IMG/VR virus record: IMGVR_UViG_3300022758_000415
Source of the DNA: a virus
Lineage: Duplodnaviria; Heunggongvirae; Uroviricota; Caudoviricetes
Reading direction: 5' to 3' (one strand)
DNA: 4,043 nucleotides
A program made the translations under genes and the position numbers. Each line of letters opens with the position of its first letter. Within the stretch, counting starts at the first letter, position 1. Positions 1-4,043 of this stretch are shown here, in pieces. Under the pieces are notes generated by a model. It did not search any database. It saw nothing but the letters and a program-made list of their open reading frames with translations, and was not told where the DNA came from.

Positions 1-149
1 CGACTTCCGTACCAGTCCGCAAAATCCCCTGAATATCAAGCCTTCCGTAGATTTACAGTTCGTCATGGTTCGCGTCAGATCGTTGACAGCCGCACTCCAT
101 GACGGGTAAAAAAGTGGATAAAATAATTTTACCCACCGGATTTTTACCC

Positions 150-1308
150 ATGCTCACCGTTAAGCAGATTGAAGCAGCAAAGCCGAAAGAAAAACCATAC
201 CGCCTTCTCGATGGTAATGGCCTGTACCTTTATGTCCCTGTGTCAGGGAAAAAGGTATGGCAGCTTCGCTACAAGATTGACGGTAAGGAGAAAATCCTGA
301 CCGTCGGAAAATATCCGCTTATGACTTTGCAGGAGGCAAGGGATAAAGCATGGACTGCGAGGAAAGACATCTCGGTTGGCATCGATCCGGTAAAGGCGAA
401 AAAGGCTTCGTCTAACAACAATTCCTTTAGTGCGATTTACAAGGAATGGTACGAGCACAAGAAGCAAGTCTGGTCAGTAGGCTATGCAACTGAACTTGCC
501 AAAATGTTTGATGACGACATTTTACCTATCATCGGCAGCCTTGAAATTCAGGATATTGAGCCGATGCAACTTCTGGAAGTAATCCGCAGATTTGAAGATC
601 GCGGTGCAATGGAGCGAGCCAACAAAGCACGCAGAAGATGCGGCGAGGTTTTCCGTTACGCTATTGTCACCGGAAGGGCTAAATATAACCCGGCACCTGA
701 CCTTGCTGACGCCATGAAGGGATACCGCAAGAAGAACTTCCCGTTTCTTCCTGCAGACCAGATCCCTGCATTCAACAAAGCACTGGCAACATTTTCAGGA
801 AGTATCGTATCGCTCATTGCGACCAAAGTTTTACGCTACACAGCCCTAAGAACGAAAGAGCTTCGTTCCATGCAATGGAAGAACGTCGATTTTGAAAACA
901 GGATTATCACTATCGACGCCAGTGTGATGAAGGGACGCAAGATTCATGTTGTCCCGATGTCGGACCAGGTGGTTGAACTTCTCACTACGCTAAGCTCAAT
1001 CACCAAACCAGTATCAGAGTTTGATTTTTGCCGGGCGCAACGATAAGAAGAAGCCAATCTGCGAGAACGCGGTACTGCTTGTGATCAAACAAATCGGCTA
1101 TGAAGGTCTGGAAAGCGGTCACGGATTCAGGCATGAATTCAGCACGATTATGAACGAGCACGAATGGCCTGCTGATGCTATTGAAGTACAACTGGCACAT
1201 GCCAACGGCGGATCTGTACGCGGAATTTACAACCATGCTCAGTATCTCGATAAGCGCAGAGAAATGATGCAGTGGTGGGCAGACTGGCTTGATGAAAAGG
1301 TGGAGTGA
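150..1308 (+). pseudogene. intS: P4-family tyrosine integrase (IntS-like), reading frame broken by a 1-nt indel around the T5 run at 1025-1029; would be intact if that run is really T4
   Basis: Seen: ORF 99-1046 translates to an N-terminal domain (MLTVKQIEAAKPKEKPYRLLDGNGLYLYV...WQLRYKIDGKE) resembling the P4 integrase N-terminus. ORF 1021-1308, in the +1 frame, carries the catalytic region (GHGFRHEF, LAH, VRGIYNHAQY, MMQWWADWLD). The span 150-1308 is 1159 nt, not a multiple of 3. Deleting one T at 1025-1029 gives a continuous ...PVSEFDFAGRNDKKKP... Start assigned to ATG 150 (MLTVKQ) rather than ATG 99 because homology begins there; no strong Shine-Dalgarno at either. The symbol intS is by analogy to the int-gtrA-gtrB arrangement I recall in E. 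coli K-12 CPS-53, not from a search. Confidence 0.85.
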
Positions 1309-1396
1309 ACCACCTTAACTATCGAATGACACAAATCCTTGCAATCCAGTGCAAAGCTTTGTGTACCAGAGTTTTTCTTCATCAACTACCGCAAGT

Positions 1397-1406
1397 ATCG
1401 ATCGAT
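1397..1406. repeat. Perfect 10-bp palindrome ATCGATCGAT containing the only Dam GATC site in the int-gtrA intergenic region; regulatory role unproven
   Basis: Seen: ATCGATCGAT at 1397-1406 is self-complementary and is immediately followed by TTGAGA (1406-1411), a -35-like hexamer about 50 nt upstream of the gtrA ATG. No convincing -10 at canonical spacing. Confidence 0.25.
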
Positions 1407-1457
1407 TGAGACTTGGATGATAGACTTCATGCCTTTCAGAACTCATTGATTAAATAA

Positions 1458-1820
1458 ATGTTAAAGCTATTTGCAAAGTACACCTCGATTGGTGTGCTGA
1501 ACACACTTATACACTGGGTGGTTTTTGGTGTATGTATCTATGCCGCGCATACCAATCAGGCTCTGGCAAACTTCGCAGGTTTCGTTGTGGCTGTGAGTTT
1601 TAGCTTCTTCGCGAATGCAAAATTCACATTCAAAGCATCGACTACAACGATGCGCTACATGTTATTTGTCGGGTTCATGGGAACACTGAGTGCAACTGTT
1701 GGATGGGCTGCTGATAGATGTTCACTTCCTCCAATTATCACTCTCGTCACCTTTTCCGCCATCAGCCTGGTGTGCGGTTTCGTCTATTCAAAGTTCATTG
1801 TCTTTAGGGATGCGAAATGA
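1458..1820 (+). CDS. gtrA: GtrA, small 4-helix membrane protein of the O-antigen glucosylation system (flippase for undecaprenyl-phosphate glucose)
   Basis: Seen: 120-aa hydrophobic protein ([25 protein letters not shown]...[10 protein letters not shown]) matching my recollection of the highly conserved GtrA/YfdG family. Stop TGA 1818-1820 overlaps the gtrB ATG 1817-1819 (ATGA). Sits directly upstream of a GT2 gtrB. Weak Shine-Dalgarno. Confidence 0.9.
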
Positions 1821-2716
1821 AGATATCTCTTGTAGTTCCTGTCTTCAATGAAGAAGAAGCGATACCAATTTTTTATAAAACGGTACGTGAATTCGAAGAG
1901 TTGAAGCCATATGAAGTGGAAATTGTTTTCATAAATGACGGAAGCAAAGACGCTACGGAGTCAATTATTAATGCTCTGGCTGTTTCTGATCCGCTAGTTG
2001 TTCCGCTGTCATTTACACGCAACTTTGGTAAAGAACCAGCATTGTTTGCAGGGTTAGACCATGCAACTGGCGATGCCGTGATTCCAATTGATGTTGACCT
2101 GCAAGACCCGATTGAGGTCATTCCTCATCTTATTGAAAAGTGGCAGGCAGGTGCTGATATGGTGCTGGCAAAGCGCTCTGACAGATCAACTGATGGTAGG
2201 TTAAAGCGTAAAACTGCTGAGTGGTTTTATAAACTTCACAACAAAATTAGTAATCCGCAGATTGAAGAGAACGTTGGTGACTTCCGTCTTATGTCACGAG
2301 AGATGGTAGAAAATATCAAACTACTGCCAGAGCGTAACCTGTTTATGAAAGGCGTTTTATCTTGGGTTGGCGGTAAGACGGATGTTGTTGAATACATCCG
2401 TGCTGAACGCGTTGCCGGAAGCACAAAGTTCAATGGCTGGAAGCTCTGGAACCTGGCGCTTGAGGGGATTACAAGTTTCTCGACCTTCCCCTTGCGCGTG
2501 TGGACTTACATCGGTCTACTTGTTGCGGGACTCTCGTTCCTTTACGGGGTGTGGATGATTTTCGACACATTGGTGTTCGGTAATGCTGTCCGTGGTTATC
2601 CATCGCTATTGGTTTCAATTCTTTTCCTGGGGGGAATTCAGTTGATAGGTATTGGTGTGCTTGGGGAATACATTGGCAGAATATATGTCGAAGTAAATCA
2701 AGACCAAGATATATAA
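1817..2716 (+). CDS. gtrB: GtrB, GT2-family bactoprenol glucosyltransferase; C-terminus as sequenced is probably frameshifted, authentic stop predicted at 2737-2739
   Basis: Seen: GT2 N-terminus [17 protein letters not shown], DxD-type motif IDVDLQDP, two C-terminal hydrophobic helices, and LGEYIGRIY as in ArnC/GtrB. RBS AGGGA about 6 nt upstream of the ATG. The annotated frame ends ...EVNQDQDI, while the +1 frame from about 2696 reads [14 protein letters not shown], containing the RPRY motif conserved at ArnC/GtrB C-termini. Confidence 0.9.
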
Positions 2717-2731
2717 TTAAGGGGTCTAAAG

Positions 2732-3138
2732 ATGTTTAAATTAACGCGATATGAAATGCCAGCGATACTTATAGTCGCTTGCTTCTTCCTTCCATTCTTT
2801 TATATGCCTCCTTTTGTGGATGATGTAGCAAGATATTCATACGGATATATCGGGCTAGCTTCTCAAGGTCGATTTCTTACCGAGTTGTATTACATCCTTT
2901 TGAATTCATCAGGAAGTTGATCTCGCCAGATGTTTATCAACTGAACCTTGTTGTTTCATTTGTTATCATGATAGTAGCCTGCAATTACTTTGCTGAATCT
3001 GTGTTTGGCAAGCAATGGATTGCAAAAACAATCACGATATGTGTTTTAATTTGTTCTCCATTTTATATTGAAAACATGTCATACCACATTGATGTTATTG
3101 GAATGTCGGCATCGTTTTCTTTGGCTATGCTGGAGTAG
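2732..3138 (+). pseudogene. N-terminal remnant (about 134 codons after correcting one frameshift) of a serotype-specific GT-C glucosyltransferase (gtr type gene); frameshifted and truncated
   Basis: Seen: occupies the third position of the gtr operon, with RBS AAGGGG upstream of ATG 2732. Hydrophobic N-terminus followed by PFVDDVARYSYG, which resembles the D[DE]xxRY first periplasmic loop motif of GT-C enzymes such as ArnT. ORFs 2732-2920 and 2917-3138 join if the T4 run at 2898-2901 is T5 (...ELYYILFEFIRKLISPDVYQ...). The frame ends at TAG 3136-3138, far short of the 400-500 aa expected for this family. Markedly AT-richer than its neighbours by eye. Confidence 0.55.
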
Positions 3139-3283
3139 CTGTTGCGGTATCGCAGTAATGACGAGTGTCAACAAACTTATCCATGCCATCGATATCAAGT
3201 ACGCAAAACCATGTGTGATTCGGCATTTCAACAGATGGTATTTGTTGCCCACGTCGACGTTTATCAATAAGACATACAGTCAT
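3125..3283 (-). CDS. Short 52-codon ORF translationally coupled to the upstream hypothetical gene; possibly the 5' remnant of a truncated gene
   Basis: Seen: ATG (complement of 3281-3283) overlaps the TGA stop of the 3826-3280 gene as ATGA. Translation is MTVCLIDKRRRGQQIPSVEMPNHTWFCVLDIDGMDKFVDTRHYCDTATATPA, ending at TAG (complement of 3125-3127). It was not in the supplied ORF track, presumably because it is short. It ends within about 14 nt of the end of the gtr-type remnant. Confidence 0.25.
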   Translation of the reverse strand: MTVCLIDKRRRGQQIPSVEMPNHTWFCVLDIDGMDKFVDTRHYCDTATATPA

Positions 3284-3826
3284 GGTTCCACCTTCTCTAT
3301 TTGCTTAAGACCGTCTCTCACTGCATTAAGTACGCGTTCCAGATACTGGTATTTCGGGTTTGGTACCGTTGGCCAGTCGGCATACCACGGATCATCACCA
3401 AAGAGATTCAGCAGTTTGTTACCGACGCCGAAACAACAGCAGCTTTCTTTTACGTCATCGGCGTTTTCCGCCTCGTCCCACATTTCGCGAGCCTGTACCG
3501 CGTCGATTTCTTTCTCTCTTCGTAACTTTATGATTTCTGACTTCACGAAAAGCAGATTTGCATCGTTGTCATCGTCGACCGTGCTTAGCAGTTGAGGGTC
3601 GAAAATTGTCGATTAGATAGTCGTTGCTAACTCGCTTAATGAACGTCTGCACATCATCACCGCCCATAGCAAACCAAGCCGCAGTCCACGCCTTTCCGTA
3701 GCAGGTGATGGTGATTCTTCCCTTACCAGGTTCGTAGTTTTCAATCATCACTCGAACCGGATCTAGTCGCTCTGCACCGGTTATAACGAATGACAACACA
3801 TCAATCTTTTCAACCGTTACACTCAC
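3280..3826 (-). CDS. Hypothetical acidic protein of about 180 aa, function unknown; interrupted as sequenced by a 1-nt indel at the A4 run 3602-3605
   Basis: Seen: GTG start at 3826-3824 preceded by a strong Shine-Dalgarno AAGGAGG (complement of 3834-3840) with a 7-nt spacer. ORFs 3826-3569 and 3546-3280 on the - strand join into one protein (...SNDYLIDNF/DPQLLSTVDDDNDANLLF...) if one base is removed from the homopolymer. Central acidic stretch, CCC triplet and a PWYADWPTVPNPKYQYL C-terminal region. I do not recognise the family. Confidence 0.6.
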
Positions 3827-3866
3827 TGGTTCGCCTCCTTTGCGAAGCTGGTCGGCGACTCGTTAA

Positions 3867-3894
3867 GTGATATGTAGCAATCTCCAAATGTTAA
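3867..3894 (-). promoter_or_regulatory. Candidate sigma70 promoter for the - strand hypothetical gene (-35 TTAACA, 16-nt spacer, -10 TATCAC)
   Basis: Seen: on the - strand, TTAACA (complement of 3889-3894) and TATCAC (complement of 3867-3872) separated by 16 nt, about 40 nt upstream of the GTG start. Hexamer match only, so weak. Confidence 0.2.
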
Positions 3895-4043
3895 CGAACC
3901 GCTCGACTGCATATGCTCCATAGGCCATCTCCACGCCCTGCGCCCGTACCTTCAGCCAAGAAAGCGTCGGTGGCTGTGGTTTCCGATATCGTTAATTTCA
4001 GGAAGAATCTCTTCCCATGTAGCGATATCGCCATTCAAATGCC

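What the first reader, a model, noticed from the sequence alone, without database searches (positions are those of the whole stretch)
150..3138. Integrase-linked O-antigen glucosylation cassette (int-gtrA-gtrB-gtr type)
The gene order is a P4-type integrase, then GtrA, then a GT2 GtrB, then a GT-C remnant, all co-directional. That is the signature of phage-borne serotype-conversion modules that add glucose to O-antigen through undecaprenyl-phosphate glucose. This is a known system, not a novel one; the interest is in its degraded state here.
Basis: partly seen in the sequence, partly recalled or inferred. Interest (0 to 1): 0.45.

Follow-up and report, generated by a model that had tools for sequence, protein, structure and literature searches.

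The report
Broken prophage O-antigen glucosylation cassette
This is the integrase end of a P22-like prophage carrying the well-known three-gene system that adds glucose to the bacterial O-antigen, but here three of the four genes are broken, so it is an ordinary, already understood kind of element in a disabled (or badly sequenced) state.

Summary
Window 150-3138 holds, co-directionally, intS (a P4-type tyrosine integrase), gtrA, gtrB and the start of a type-specific GT-C glucosyltransferase.

Every family assignment passed a test:
- IntS is 99.5% identical to E. coli K-12 IntS and 35% identical to P4 Int over its full length.
- GtrA is a full-length PF04138 protein.
- GtrB is 93% identical to Shigella SfII/SfIV/SfV GtrB and homologous to the solved GtrB.

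- intS has a +1 frameshift at 1024.
- The "299-aa GtrB" is itself frameshifted and loses its conserved C-terminal beta-hairpin.
- The third gene has a -1 frameshift and stops at codon 134 of 473, at 3133/3134. There it abuts unrelated, also broken, phage early genes on the other strand.
- Only gtrA is intact.

Window 6-3133 differs from intact copies elsewhere by four single-base indels and no substitutions. The point lesions are therefore either very recent or sequencing errors, and I cannot tell which.

This is a known system with a rare, uncharacterised type gene. Interest is low.

The parts
1..149 (+). Phage-side arm of attL and the intS leader. Positions 6-149 are identical to intact relatives except for one extra A in the run at 108-113. 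Positions 1-5 (CGACT) do not match the relatives.
   Evidence: Alignments; indel list. In relatives L001 and L003, tRNA-Arg(CCU) ends 18 nt upstream of the position equivalent to window 6. No tRNA lies inside the window.
150..1308 (+). intS, a P4-type tyrosine integrase, broken by an inserted A at 1024 (codon 292). This gives ORFs 150-1046 (298 aa, 291 of them native) and 1021-1308 (95 aa).
   Evidence: Pfam hits on both fragments. Removing base 1024 restores a 385-aa protein 99.5% identical to K-12 IntS. It is 35% identical, E 1e-77, to P4 Int. The insertion is absent from L001 and L003.
1309..1457 (+). intS-gtrA spacer, the conserved upstream (promoter/regulatory) region of the gtr module. 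It includes a conserved hairpin at 1337-1356 and a single GATC at 1400.
   Evidence: About 150 nt are conserved between the window, K-12 CPS-53 and phage SfV. The window lacks the thrW-type attP insert that SfV and P22 carry here. GATC count.
1458..1820 (+). gtrA, intact, 120 aa. It is the proposed flippase for undecaprenyl-phosphate-glucose.
   Evidence: PF04138 positions 1-117/117. phrog_2224 positions 1-120/120, E 3.9e-70. 96.7% identical to K-12 YfdG. The exact protein is found in many public assemblies.
1817..2716 (+). gtrB, the GT2 undecaprenyl-phosphate glucosyltransferase, frameshifted by loss of one A in the run at 2695-2697. It is native to residue 293. NQDQDI* then replaces [14 protein letters not shown] (307 aa when intact).
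   Evidence: 93% identical to SfII/SfIV/SfV GtrB, with the match ending at residue 295. The intact form aligns with solved GtrB 5EKP, E 3.8e-88, through the EVKxRPxY tail. The C-terminal beta-hairpin bridges subunits of the tetramer (PMC4728340).
2732..3133 (+). Remnant of the type-specific GT-C glucosyltransferase (gtrC / gtr-type): codons 1-134 of 473, with one A lost at 2914-2915 (codon 62).
   Evidence: Identical to L003 and L004 apart from the 1-base deletion. The repaired 134 aa score 36.4 bits against PF14264. The intact homologue scores PF14264 2.6e-21 and has a GT-C fold.
3133..3134 (.). Breakpoint where homology to gtrC stops and homology to another phage module starts. The two parents share GG at the crossover, and a 9-nt identical block (TTTTCTTTG) ends 10 nt upstream of it.
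   Evidence: One search gives the parent sequences side by side. The junction sequence was not found in genome, viral or metagenome collections.
3134..3283 (-). N-terminal half (about 50 of 99 codons) of a DUF7739 phage gene, cut at the breakpoint.
   Evidence: PF24881 3.5e-09, profile positions 1-52/98. phrog_1239. Intact 99-aa neighbours occur in L002 and L009.
3280..3826 (-). phiTE_072-family / phrog_3451 phage gene (181 aa when intact), split into 88-aa and 85-aa ORFs by an extra A in the run at 3602-3605.
   Evidence: PHROG hits cover consecutive parts of one profile. Alignments to L002 and L009 show the extra base.
3823..4043 (-). Fragmented continuation of the same phage early-gene module (YfdS-like position), with further indels, including an extra C at 3832.

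Best explanation
**What it is.** The window is the integrase-proximal (attL) end of an IntS/argW-type, P22-like prophage. It carries a three-component O-antigen glucosylation ('serotype conversion') cassette.

**How the intact system works** (established knowledge of the families):
- IntS, a P4-type tyrosine recombinase, inserts the phage at the 3' end of argW.
- GtrB, a tetrameric GT-A/GT2 membrane enzyme, makes undecaprenyl-phosphate-glucose from UDP-glucose on the cytoplasmic face.
- GtrA, a small four-helix membrane protein, is thought to flip that lipid-linked glucose to the periplasm.
- The type-specific GT-C enzyme transfers the glucose to one position of the O-antigen repeat. This changes the serotype and blocks phages that use the O-antigen as receptor.

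**State of this sequence as written.** The cassette cannot do this on its own.
- intS is split at codon 292. The box-I Arg and the hairpin Lys fall on one fragment; HxxR and the Tyr nucleophile fall on the other.
- gtrB loses its conserved C-terminal hairpin.
- The GT-C gene is frameshifted at codon 62 and ends at codon 134, where it abuts unrelated phage early genes on the opposite strand. Whatever lay beyond the breakpoint, including the tailspike gene that follows gtrC in intact relatives, is not contiguous here.
- Only gtrA is intact.

**Shown versus inferred.** Shown: gene identities, lesions, breakpoint, fold. Inferred: loss of function, and the history of the breakpoint. That could be a deletion if the DUF7739 module sat in the rightward early operon, or an inversion or inter-prophage recombination otherwise.

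**Are the point lesions real?** I treat it as an open question, roughly even odds, whether the single-base lesions are real mutations or sequence errors.
For: **Gene identities.**

**Context in intact relatives.**
- argW-intS-gtrA-gtrB-gtrC, followed by a tailspike on the opposite strand, in E. coli NCTC11121 and in L003.
- A complete 40-kb P22-like prophage from argW to dsdC in NCTC11121.

**P4-type layout.** In P4, attP lies 5' of int.

**Lesions.** Mapped base by base against intact copies.

**GtrB tail.** Its conservation, and the role of the hairpin in bridging subunits (PMC4728340).

**GT-C gene.**
- D30, D31 and R34, invariant across 109 homologues, are retained in the remnant. Y159 (nearly invariant), Q160 (invariant) and R313 (nearly invariant) are lost.

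**Literature.**
- Three-component model (PMC3688519; PMC11127046).
- Degraded gtr clusters are known in Salmonella (PMC3688519).

**Independent inactivation.** An 8-bp deletion in the same gtrC allele exists in another sample (L012).
Against: - Window 6-3133 shows 0 substitutions but 4 single-base indels relative to intact L003. That is an odd spectrum for natural decay.
- None of the broken protein products is on record in a collection of 153 billion gene positions.
- The breakpoint sequence is found nowhere else, and two of the frameshift alleles (intS and gtrB), each searched in one collection, were not found either.
- No tRNA or att core can be seen, because the window starts after them, and its first five bases do not match the relatives.
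- No function was measured.
Confidence: 0.85

Rival explanations
1. The single-base frameshifts are sequencing or assembly errors. In the organism, intS and gtrB (and the first 134 codons of gtrC) are intact, and only the truncation at 3133/3134 is biological.
For: - Over 3,128 aligned bases the window differs from intact L003 by +A (108-113 run), +A (1024), -A (2695-2697 run) and -A (2914-2915 run), with no substitution at all.
- Two more single-base insertions break the right-hand genes relative to both available references.
- Four of the six events change the length of an A-run, and one is intergenic.
- If indels make up 10-20% of natural mutations (my own knowledge of E. coli mutation-accumulation data), four of four events being indels has a probability of about 1e-4 to 2e-3.
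- The frameshifted products are absent from public gene catalogues.
Against: - Two of the six indels are not in homopolymers (1024, 3832).
- Natural inactivation of this very gtrC allele is documented by an 8-bp deletion in another sample.
- Frameshifted products would also be missing from catalogues if annotators flagged them as pseudogenes.
- I could not see reads or identify the source.
Confidence: 0.45
2. The junction at 3133/3134 is a chimeric assembly join. The organism has a complete gtrC followed by a tailspike gene, as in the intact relatives.
For: - The junction sequence is absent from species-representative genomes, viral contigs and metagenome contigs, and no complete E. coli genome covers 80% or more of the window.
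- The window looks error-rich.
Against: - The two parents share only 2 nt at the crossover, plus a 9-nt block nearby. That is too little to mislead a k-mer or overlap assembler, and it is typical of illegitimate recombination.
- Truncated, rearranged prophages are commonplace. CPS-53 itself is one.
Confidence: 0.15
3. The A-run indels are reversible slippage switches, or sites of programmed frameshifting, that turn integrase and glucosylation genes on and off.
For: Four of six indels lie in A-runs. gtr operons of Salmonella are known to phase-vary, though by a different, Dam/OxyR mechanism (PMC2909390).
Against: - The runs are only 2-6 nt long, far shorter than known contingency tracts (own knowledge).
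- The same tracts are invariant in L001, L003, L004 and L012.
- Two events are not in runs.
- gtrC is truncated anyway.
- The Dam/OxyR signature of four GATC sites is absent; the window has one.
Confidence: 0.02
4. The locus is simply cryptic prophage CPS-53 (KpLE1) of E. coli K-12.
For: IntS is 99.5%, GtrA 96.7% and GtrB 89.9% identical to K-12, with the same gene order next to argW in relatives.
Against: - The type-specific gene is unrelated in sequence to yfdI: 16% identity in a global alignment, and YfdI gives no PF14264 hit.
- The downstream genes differ.
- The best E. coli match is only 95.4% identical.
Confidence: 0.01

Closest known systems
Cryptic prophage CPS-53 / KpLE1 of E. coli K-12 (argW-intS-yfdG-yfdH-yfdI)
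   Same: - Same integrase (99.5% identical once repaired).
- Same order int-gtrA-gtrB-type gene, all co-directional, with att on the 5' side of int.
- GtrA 96.7% and GtrB 89.9% identical.
- A conserved region upstream of gtrA.
- Both are defective prophage remnants.
   Different: - The type-specific gene belongs to another family (PF14264-positive, versus no hit for YfdI).
- Here intS, gtrB and the type gene are broken, whereas all four are annotated intact in K-12.
- The sequence to the right is a different phage module.
Intact P22-like argW prophages of E. coli NCTC11121 / NCTC9966 and of assembly GCA_052515165.1 (L003)
   Same: Same cassette, including the same rare gtrC type. L003 is base-for-base identical over window 6-3133 apart from four single-base indels. 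NCTC11121 is 95.4% identical.
   Different: Those copies have all four genes intact, followed by the tailspike and a full set of virion genes. The window has the lesions and the breakpoint at 3133/3134.
Shigella flexneri serotype-converting phages SfII, SfIV, SfV, SfI, and Salmonella phage P22 (gtrA-gtrB-gtr(type)/gtrC)
   Same: - Same three-component mechanism.
- GtrB is 93% (Shigella phages) and 88% (P22) identical.
- Same map order xis-int-gtrA-gtrB-gtr(type)-terminator, with a tail gene opposite.
- The region upstream of gtrA is shared with SfV.
   Different: - Their integrase is unrelated beyond the recombinase fold (E 0.024 against SfV Int).
- Their attP, with a tRNA-Thr fragment, lies between int and gtrA, so int and gtr separate on integration.
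- The type genes share 25% identity or less.
- P22's four-GATC phase-variation region is not present here.
Synechocystis GtrB (PDB 5EKP) and ArnC polyisoprenyl-phosphate glycosyltransferases
   Same: The intact form of the window's GtrB aligns end to end with both: E 3.8e-88 for GtrB and 1e-45 for ArnC. The alignment includes the two transmembrane helices and the C-terminal EVKxRPxY hairpin.
   Different: The window's copy lacks the hairpin because of the frameshift at residue 294.

Membership tests
Three-component Gtr O-antigen glucosylation system | GtrA: a small (about 120 aa) polytopic membrane protein of the GtrA/DPMS family, encoded first in the operon | tested here: met
   PF04138 positions 1-117/117, E 1.7e-13. 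phrog_2224 full length, E 3.9e-70. Intact ORF 1458-1820.
Three-component Gtr O-antigen glucosylation system | GtrB: a GT2/GT-A catalytic domain plus two C-terminal transmembrane helices, homologous to solved GtrB | tested here: met
   PF00535 4.4e-31. phrog_841 3.7e-160. 93% identical to SfII/SfIV/SfV GtrB. The intact form matches 5EKP at 3.8e-88.
Three-component Gtr O-antigen glucosylation system | GtrB complete through its conserved C-terminal beta-hairpin (K-x-R-P-x-Y) | tested here: not met
   A one-base deletion at 2695-2697 replaces residues 294-307 with NQDQDI. The hairpin's role is described in PMC4728340.
Three-component Gtr O-antigen glucosylation system | Type-specific transferase with a GT-C fold | tested here: met
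Three-component Gtr O-antigen glucosylation system | Type-specific transferase present as a complete gene | tested here: not met
   Only codons 1-134 of 473 are present, with a frameshift at codon 62.
Three-component Gtr O-antigen glucosylation system | Operon order gtrA-gtrB-gtr(type) with overlapping or abutting genes and a conserved upstream region | tested here: met
   The gtrA stop overlaps the gtrB start at 1817-1820. The order matches K-12, SfV and P22. The upstream 150 nt are conserved.
Three-component Gtr O-antigen glucosylation system | Synthesis of undecaprenyl-phosphate-glucose and glucosylation of O-antigen | not testable with these tools
   Requires LPS chemistry or serology.
P4-type (IntS/CP4-57-like) tyrosine integrases | Arm-binding N-terminal domain, central SAM-like domain and C-terminal catalytic domain | tested here: met
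   PF13356 1.5e-25, PF22022 1.5e-28, and PF00589 on both fragments. NF007246 on both fragments.
P4-type (IntS/CP4-57-like) tyrosine integrases | Full-length sequence similarity to phage P4 Int | tested here: met
   35% identity over 402 columns, E 1e-77. By contrast, E 0.024 against SfV Int.
P4-type (IntS/CP4-57-like) tyrosine integrases | att site on the 5' side of int, at the 3' end of a tRNA gene | tested here: inconclusive
   True in P4 and in relatives L001, L003 and K-12. The window itself starts after the tRNA, and bases 1-5 differ from the relatives.
P4-type (IntS/CP4-57-like) tyrosine integrases | Uninterrupted reading frame that joins all catalytic residues | tested here: not met
   An inserted A at 1024 splits the gene at codon 292. 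ALRTKE and KGRKIH lie upstream; HGFRHE and GIYNH lie downstream.
CPS-53 / KpLE1 of E. coli K-12 (same element) | Type-specific gene yfdI and the K-12 downstream genes | tested here: not met
   16% identity to YfdI in a global alignment, and a different Pfam result. The downstream genes differ.
Dam/OxyR phase-variable gtr operons (P22 type) | Four GATC sites in two pairs within about 115 bp upstream of gtrA | tested here: not met
   There is one GATC (1400) in the 149-nt spacer. The alignment with P22 shows the other three are absent. The feature is defined in PMC2909390.

The most novel reading that the evidence does not exclude
The most novel reading not excluded has two parts.
1. The frameshifts are real and recent. 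The lineage has then just switched off a rare, uncharacterised O-antigen glucosylation type while keeping gtrA intact, for example because GtrA serves another gtr cluster in the same cell.
2. The intact form of this gtrC specifies an O-antigen modification that has not been described. The gene is present in only 2 of 5,426 complete E. coli genomes and in 3 protein clusters among 5.8 billion.
Probability: 0.2. Interest if true: 0.3.

Novelty: new member of a known kind. Interest (0 to 1): 0.12.

Why it matters
Very little for biology at large. It is a textbook lysogenic-conversion module in a disabled state.

Two modest points are worth keeping:
- The type-specific gene belongs to a rare, uncharacterised GT-C family. 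Its intact copies (E. coli NCTC11121, NCTC9966 and several draft assemblies) probably define an O-antigen glucosylation of unknown specificity, which matters for serotyping and for phage-receptor studies.
- The pattern of four indels and no substitutions relative to intact copies is a warning. 'Pseudogenes' called from this sequence may be sequencing errors, which matters for anyone counting gene decay in this genome.

Tried and rejected
**Finding the source or a second copy of the breakpoint and frameshift alleles**
- Exact-pattern scans of species-representative genomes, viral contigs and metagenome contigs all found nothing.
- Exact-protein look-ups for the 299-aa GtrB, the 298/315-aa IntS fragment and the 85-aa right-hand ORF all found nothing.

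**Scans of the window**
- No tRNA.
- No Rfam family at gathering threshold.
- The promoter/terminator consensus scan gave fewer promoter-like sites than shuffled controls and nothing convincing.

**Structure**
- A first prediction from a 3-sequence alignment was unusable (pLDDT 48). It was replaced by a 109-sequence alignment.
- A sequence search of the PDB with the GT-C protein found nothing.

**Ideas rejected**
- Identity with K-12 CPS-53: the type gene differs.
- Dam/OxyR phase variation: one GATC instead of four.
- Slippage switches: the tracts are too short and are invariant in relatives.

**Not achieved**
- A near-identical reference for window 3134-4043. The best is 98% identical, so the indel-versus-substitution test could not be repeated on that side.
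Full report
**1. What is in the window**

Six-frame ORF listing shows a co-directional + strand series:
- two overlapping integrase fragments, 150(99)-1046 and 1021-1308
- a 120-aa ORF at 1458-1820
- a 299-aa ORF at 1817-2716
- two short ORFs at 2732-2920 and 2917-3138

Pfam assigns them as follows:
- Integrase fragments: Arm-DNA-bind_3, Phage_int_M and Phage_integrase.
- 120-aa ORF: GtrA_DPMS_TM.
- 299-aa ORF: Glycos_transf_2.
- Two short ORFs: Glucos_trans_II (PF14264), weakly.

PHROGs names the middle two 'GtrA-like' and 'GtrB-like O-antigen conversion', with E 3.9e-70 and 3.7e-160.

**2. Context from relatives**

Window 6-3133 matches the chromosome of E. coli NCTC11121 at 95.4% identity. 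There the genes are annotated tRNA-Arg, intS, yfdG, yfdH and a 473-aa 'glucosyltransferase domain-containing protein', followed by a P22-type tailspike on the other strand. In that strain the element is a complete 40-kb P22-like prophage between argW and dsdC.

A look-up of the exact GtrA protein returned locus L003 from assembly GCA_052515165.1. It has the same argW-int-gtrA-gtrB-gtrC-tailspike arrangement.

E. coli K-12 carries the same layout in cryptic prophage CPS-53.

**3. Tests of the family assignments**

*Integrase.*
- Deleting base 1024 restores a 385-aa IntS that is 99.5% identical to K-12 IntS.
- It is 35% identical to phage P4 Int over the whole length, E 1e-77.
- It shows no significant similarity to the SfV integrase, E 0.024.
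- In P4, attP lies 5' of int, as argW does in the relatives.

*GtrB.*
- It is 93% identical to GtrB of Shigella phages SfII, SfIV, SfV and SfI, and 88% identical to P22 GtrB.
- Its intact form aligns end to end with the solved Synechocystis GtrB (5EKP, E 3.8e-88) and with ArnC.

*Third gene.*
- The intact homologue scores 2.6e-21 against PF14264. The repaired 134-aa remnant passes the Pfam cut-off.
- A first AlphaFold model from three sequences was unusable (pLDDT 48).
- With 109 homologues gathered by a profile search, the model reached pLDDT 95.9.

The 'GT-C remnant' claim is therefore supported by test.

**4. The lesions**

Alignment with the intact copies L003 and L004 shows that window 6-3133 is identical to them except for four single-base indels:

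| Position | Change | Location |
|---|---|---|
| 108-113 run | extra A | intergenic |
| 1024 | inserted A | intS codon 292 |
| 2695-2697 run | one A lost | gtrB, residue 294 onward |
| 2914-2915 run | one A lost | gtrC codon 62 |

- *intS.* The frameshift separates ALRTKE and KGRKIH (box-I Arg and hairpin Lys, by family knowledge) from HGFRHE and GIYNH (HxxR and the Tyr nucleophile).
- *gtrB.* The frameshift replaces [14 protein letters not shown] with NQDQDI. The lost K-x-R-P-x-Y segment is conserved even in the cyanobacterial enzyme. It forms the C-terminal beta-hairpin that bridges subunits of the tetramer (PMC4728340).
- *gtrC.* It keeps the invariant D30, D31 and R34 of the family. It loses Y159, Q160, R313 and everything after residue 134.

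**5. The breakpoint**

Homology to gtrC stops after 3133. From 3134 the sequence matches a lambdoid early-gene module on the minus strand:
- the first ~50 codons of a DUF7739 gene
- a phiTE_072-family gene split by an extra A at 3602-3605
- further fragments, with an extra C at 3832

.

The two parental sequences share GG at the crossover, and a 9-nt identical block ends 10 nt upstream of it.

In different phages this module sits in different places. It follows the replication genes in L002. It lies in the leftward early operon next to xis and int in L009 and in CUS-3. Depending on which applied here, the join could be a deletion that removed the tailspike, virion, lysis and late-control genes. 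It could equally be an inversion or a recombination between prophages. A 4-kb window cannot decide this.

**6. Real decay or sequence error?**

For error:
- Zero substitutions against four indels over 3,128 bases is not what natural divergence normally gives. With indels at 10-20% of mutations (my own knowledge), the chance is about 1e-4 to 2e-3.
- Four of the six single-base events are length changes of A-runs.
- None of the broken products, nor the breakpoint, is on record anywhere I could search. The intS and gtrB frameshift alleles, each scanned in one collection, were not found either.

For real decay:
- Two events are not in homopolymers.
- Another sample (Logan contig ERR273788_271, L012) carries an independent 8-bp deletion in the same gtrC allele, four bases away. 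This gene is therefore inactivated in nature.
- Degraded gtr clusters are documented in Salmonella (PMC3688519).

I put the odds near even for the point lesions. I favour a real rearrangement for the breakpoint, because the shared sequence is too short to mislead an assembler.

**7. How it works**

The mechanism of the intact system is established for the family (PMC3688519; PMC4728340; PMC11127046):
- GtrB makes undecaprenyl-phosphate-glucose.
- GtrA is the proposed flippase.
- The GT-C enzyme adds the glucose to the O-antigen in the periplasm.

In the window as written, only the flippase step could be supplied. GtrA and GtrB of different clusters are reported to be interchangeable (PMC3688519). 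An intact gtrA could therefore still serve another cluster; this is inference.

On regulation, the 150 nt upstream of gtrA are conserved with K-12 and SfV. The Dam/OxyR phase-variation signature of P22 (four GATC sites; PMC2909390) is absent, since only one GATC is present.

**8. Comparison and novelty**

The element is a close relative of CPS-53, but with a different type gene. That gene is 16% identical to YfdI in a global alignment, and YfdI has no PF14264 hit.

It differs from the SfV/P22 arrangement in two ways. Those phages use another integrase. They also carry attP, with a tRNA-Thr fragment, between int and gtrA.

The type gene is rare:
- 2 of 5,426 complete E. coli genomes carry it.
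- Three clusters appear in a 5.8-billion-protein collection.
- The next homologues are 27% identical or less.

It is already present, unnamed, in RefSeq.

Verdict: a known kind of system, a new and uncharacterised member as regards the type gene, and disabled or mis-sequenced here. Interest is low.

Noticed in passing
L004 9206-12697 and L005 (same arrangement): The identical gtrA-gtrB-gtrC cassette also sits about 600 nt from dacD (pdu-yeeX-yeeA-sbmC-dacD neighbourhood) with no integrase beside it. Only the last ~75 nt of intS are kept. This marks a mosaic joint inside the 3' end of intS and shows that the int-gtr linkage is not obligatory. Of the places read for the exact GtrA protein, 16 similar ones were grouped with L004 and 5 with L003.
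   Followed up: partly
L012 (Logan ERR273788_271) 980-1000, equivalent to window 2919-2926: An independent 8-bp deletion (TGATCTCG) frameshifts the same gtrC allele four bases downstream of the window's 1-base deletion. The rest of that gene and the tailspike are present there.
   Followed up: yes
window 578-592 and 2249-2263: A 15-nt exact direct repeat, AGTAATCCGCAGATT (20 of 21 with one gap), lies inside intS and inside gtrB in different reading frames. It is also present in L001 and L003 but not in K-12. By my own estimate about 0.008 such repeats are expected by chance in 4 kb. It is probably coincidence, but it could mediate deletion.
   Followed up: partly
window 1-5: The first five bases (CGACT) do not match the sequence that follows argW in all relatives (CCCAT). 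The left flank may therefore not be a normal attL, or the window's end may be of poor quality.
   Followed up: partly
window 1337-1356: A hairpin, CCTTGCAATCCAGTGCAAAG, followed by a T-rich stretch is conserved upstream of gtrA in the window, K-12 and SfV; P22 keeps a recognisably similar copy (CCTTGCAAACCGATGCAAAG) further upstream of its gtrA. It could be an integrase terminator or part of gtr regulation.
   Followed up: no
window 3280-3826 and 3823-4043, minus strand: The phage early genes to the right of the breakpoint are also broken by single-base insertions (A-run 3602-3605; C at 3832). The same kind of lesion therefore runs through the whole window, not only the gtr cassette.
   Followed up: partly
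L006 4132-5463 (K-12 yfdI): K-12's serotype-specific transferase YfdI gives no Pfam hit at E <= 0.01, whereas the gtrC type found here hits PF14264 and, weakly, EpsG. The two 'type' genes at the same locus belong to very different families.
   Followed up: partly
alignment A7 (109 homologues of the 473-aa GT-C protein): Only D30, D31, R34 and Q160 are invariant across the family. G46, R47, P110, D121, M125, Y159 and R313 are nearly so. The DD pair lies between the first (residues 8-24) and second (29-37) helices of the model; by analogy with GT-C enzymes (own knowledge) that is the first periplasmic loop, where they carry their catalytic acidic residues.
   Followed up: partly
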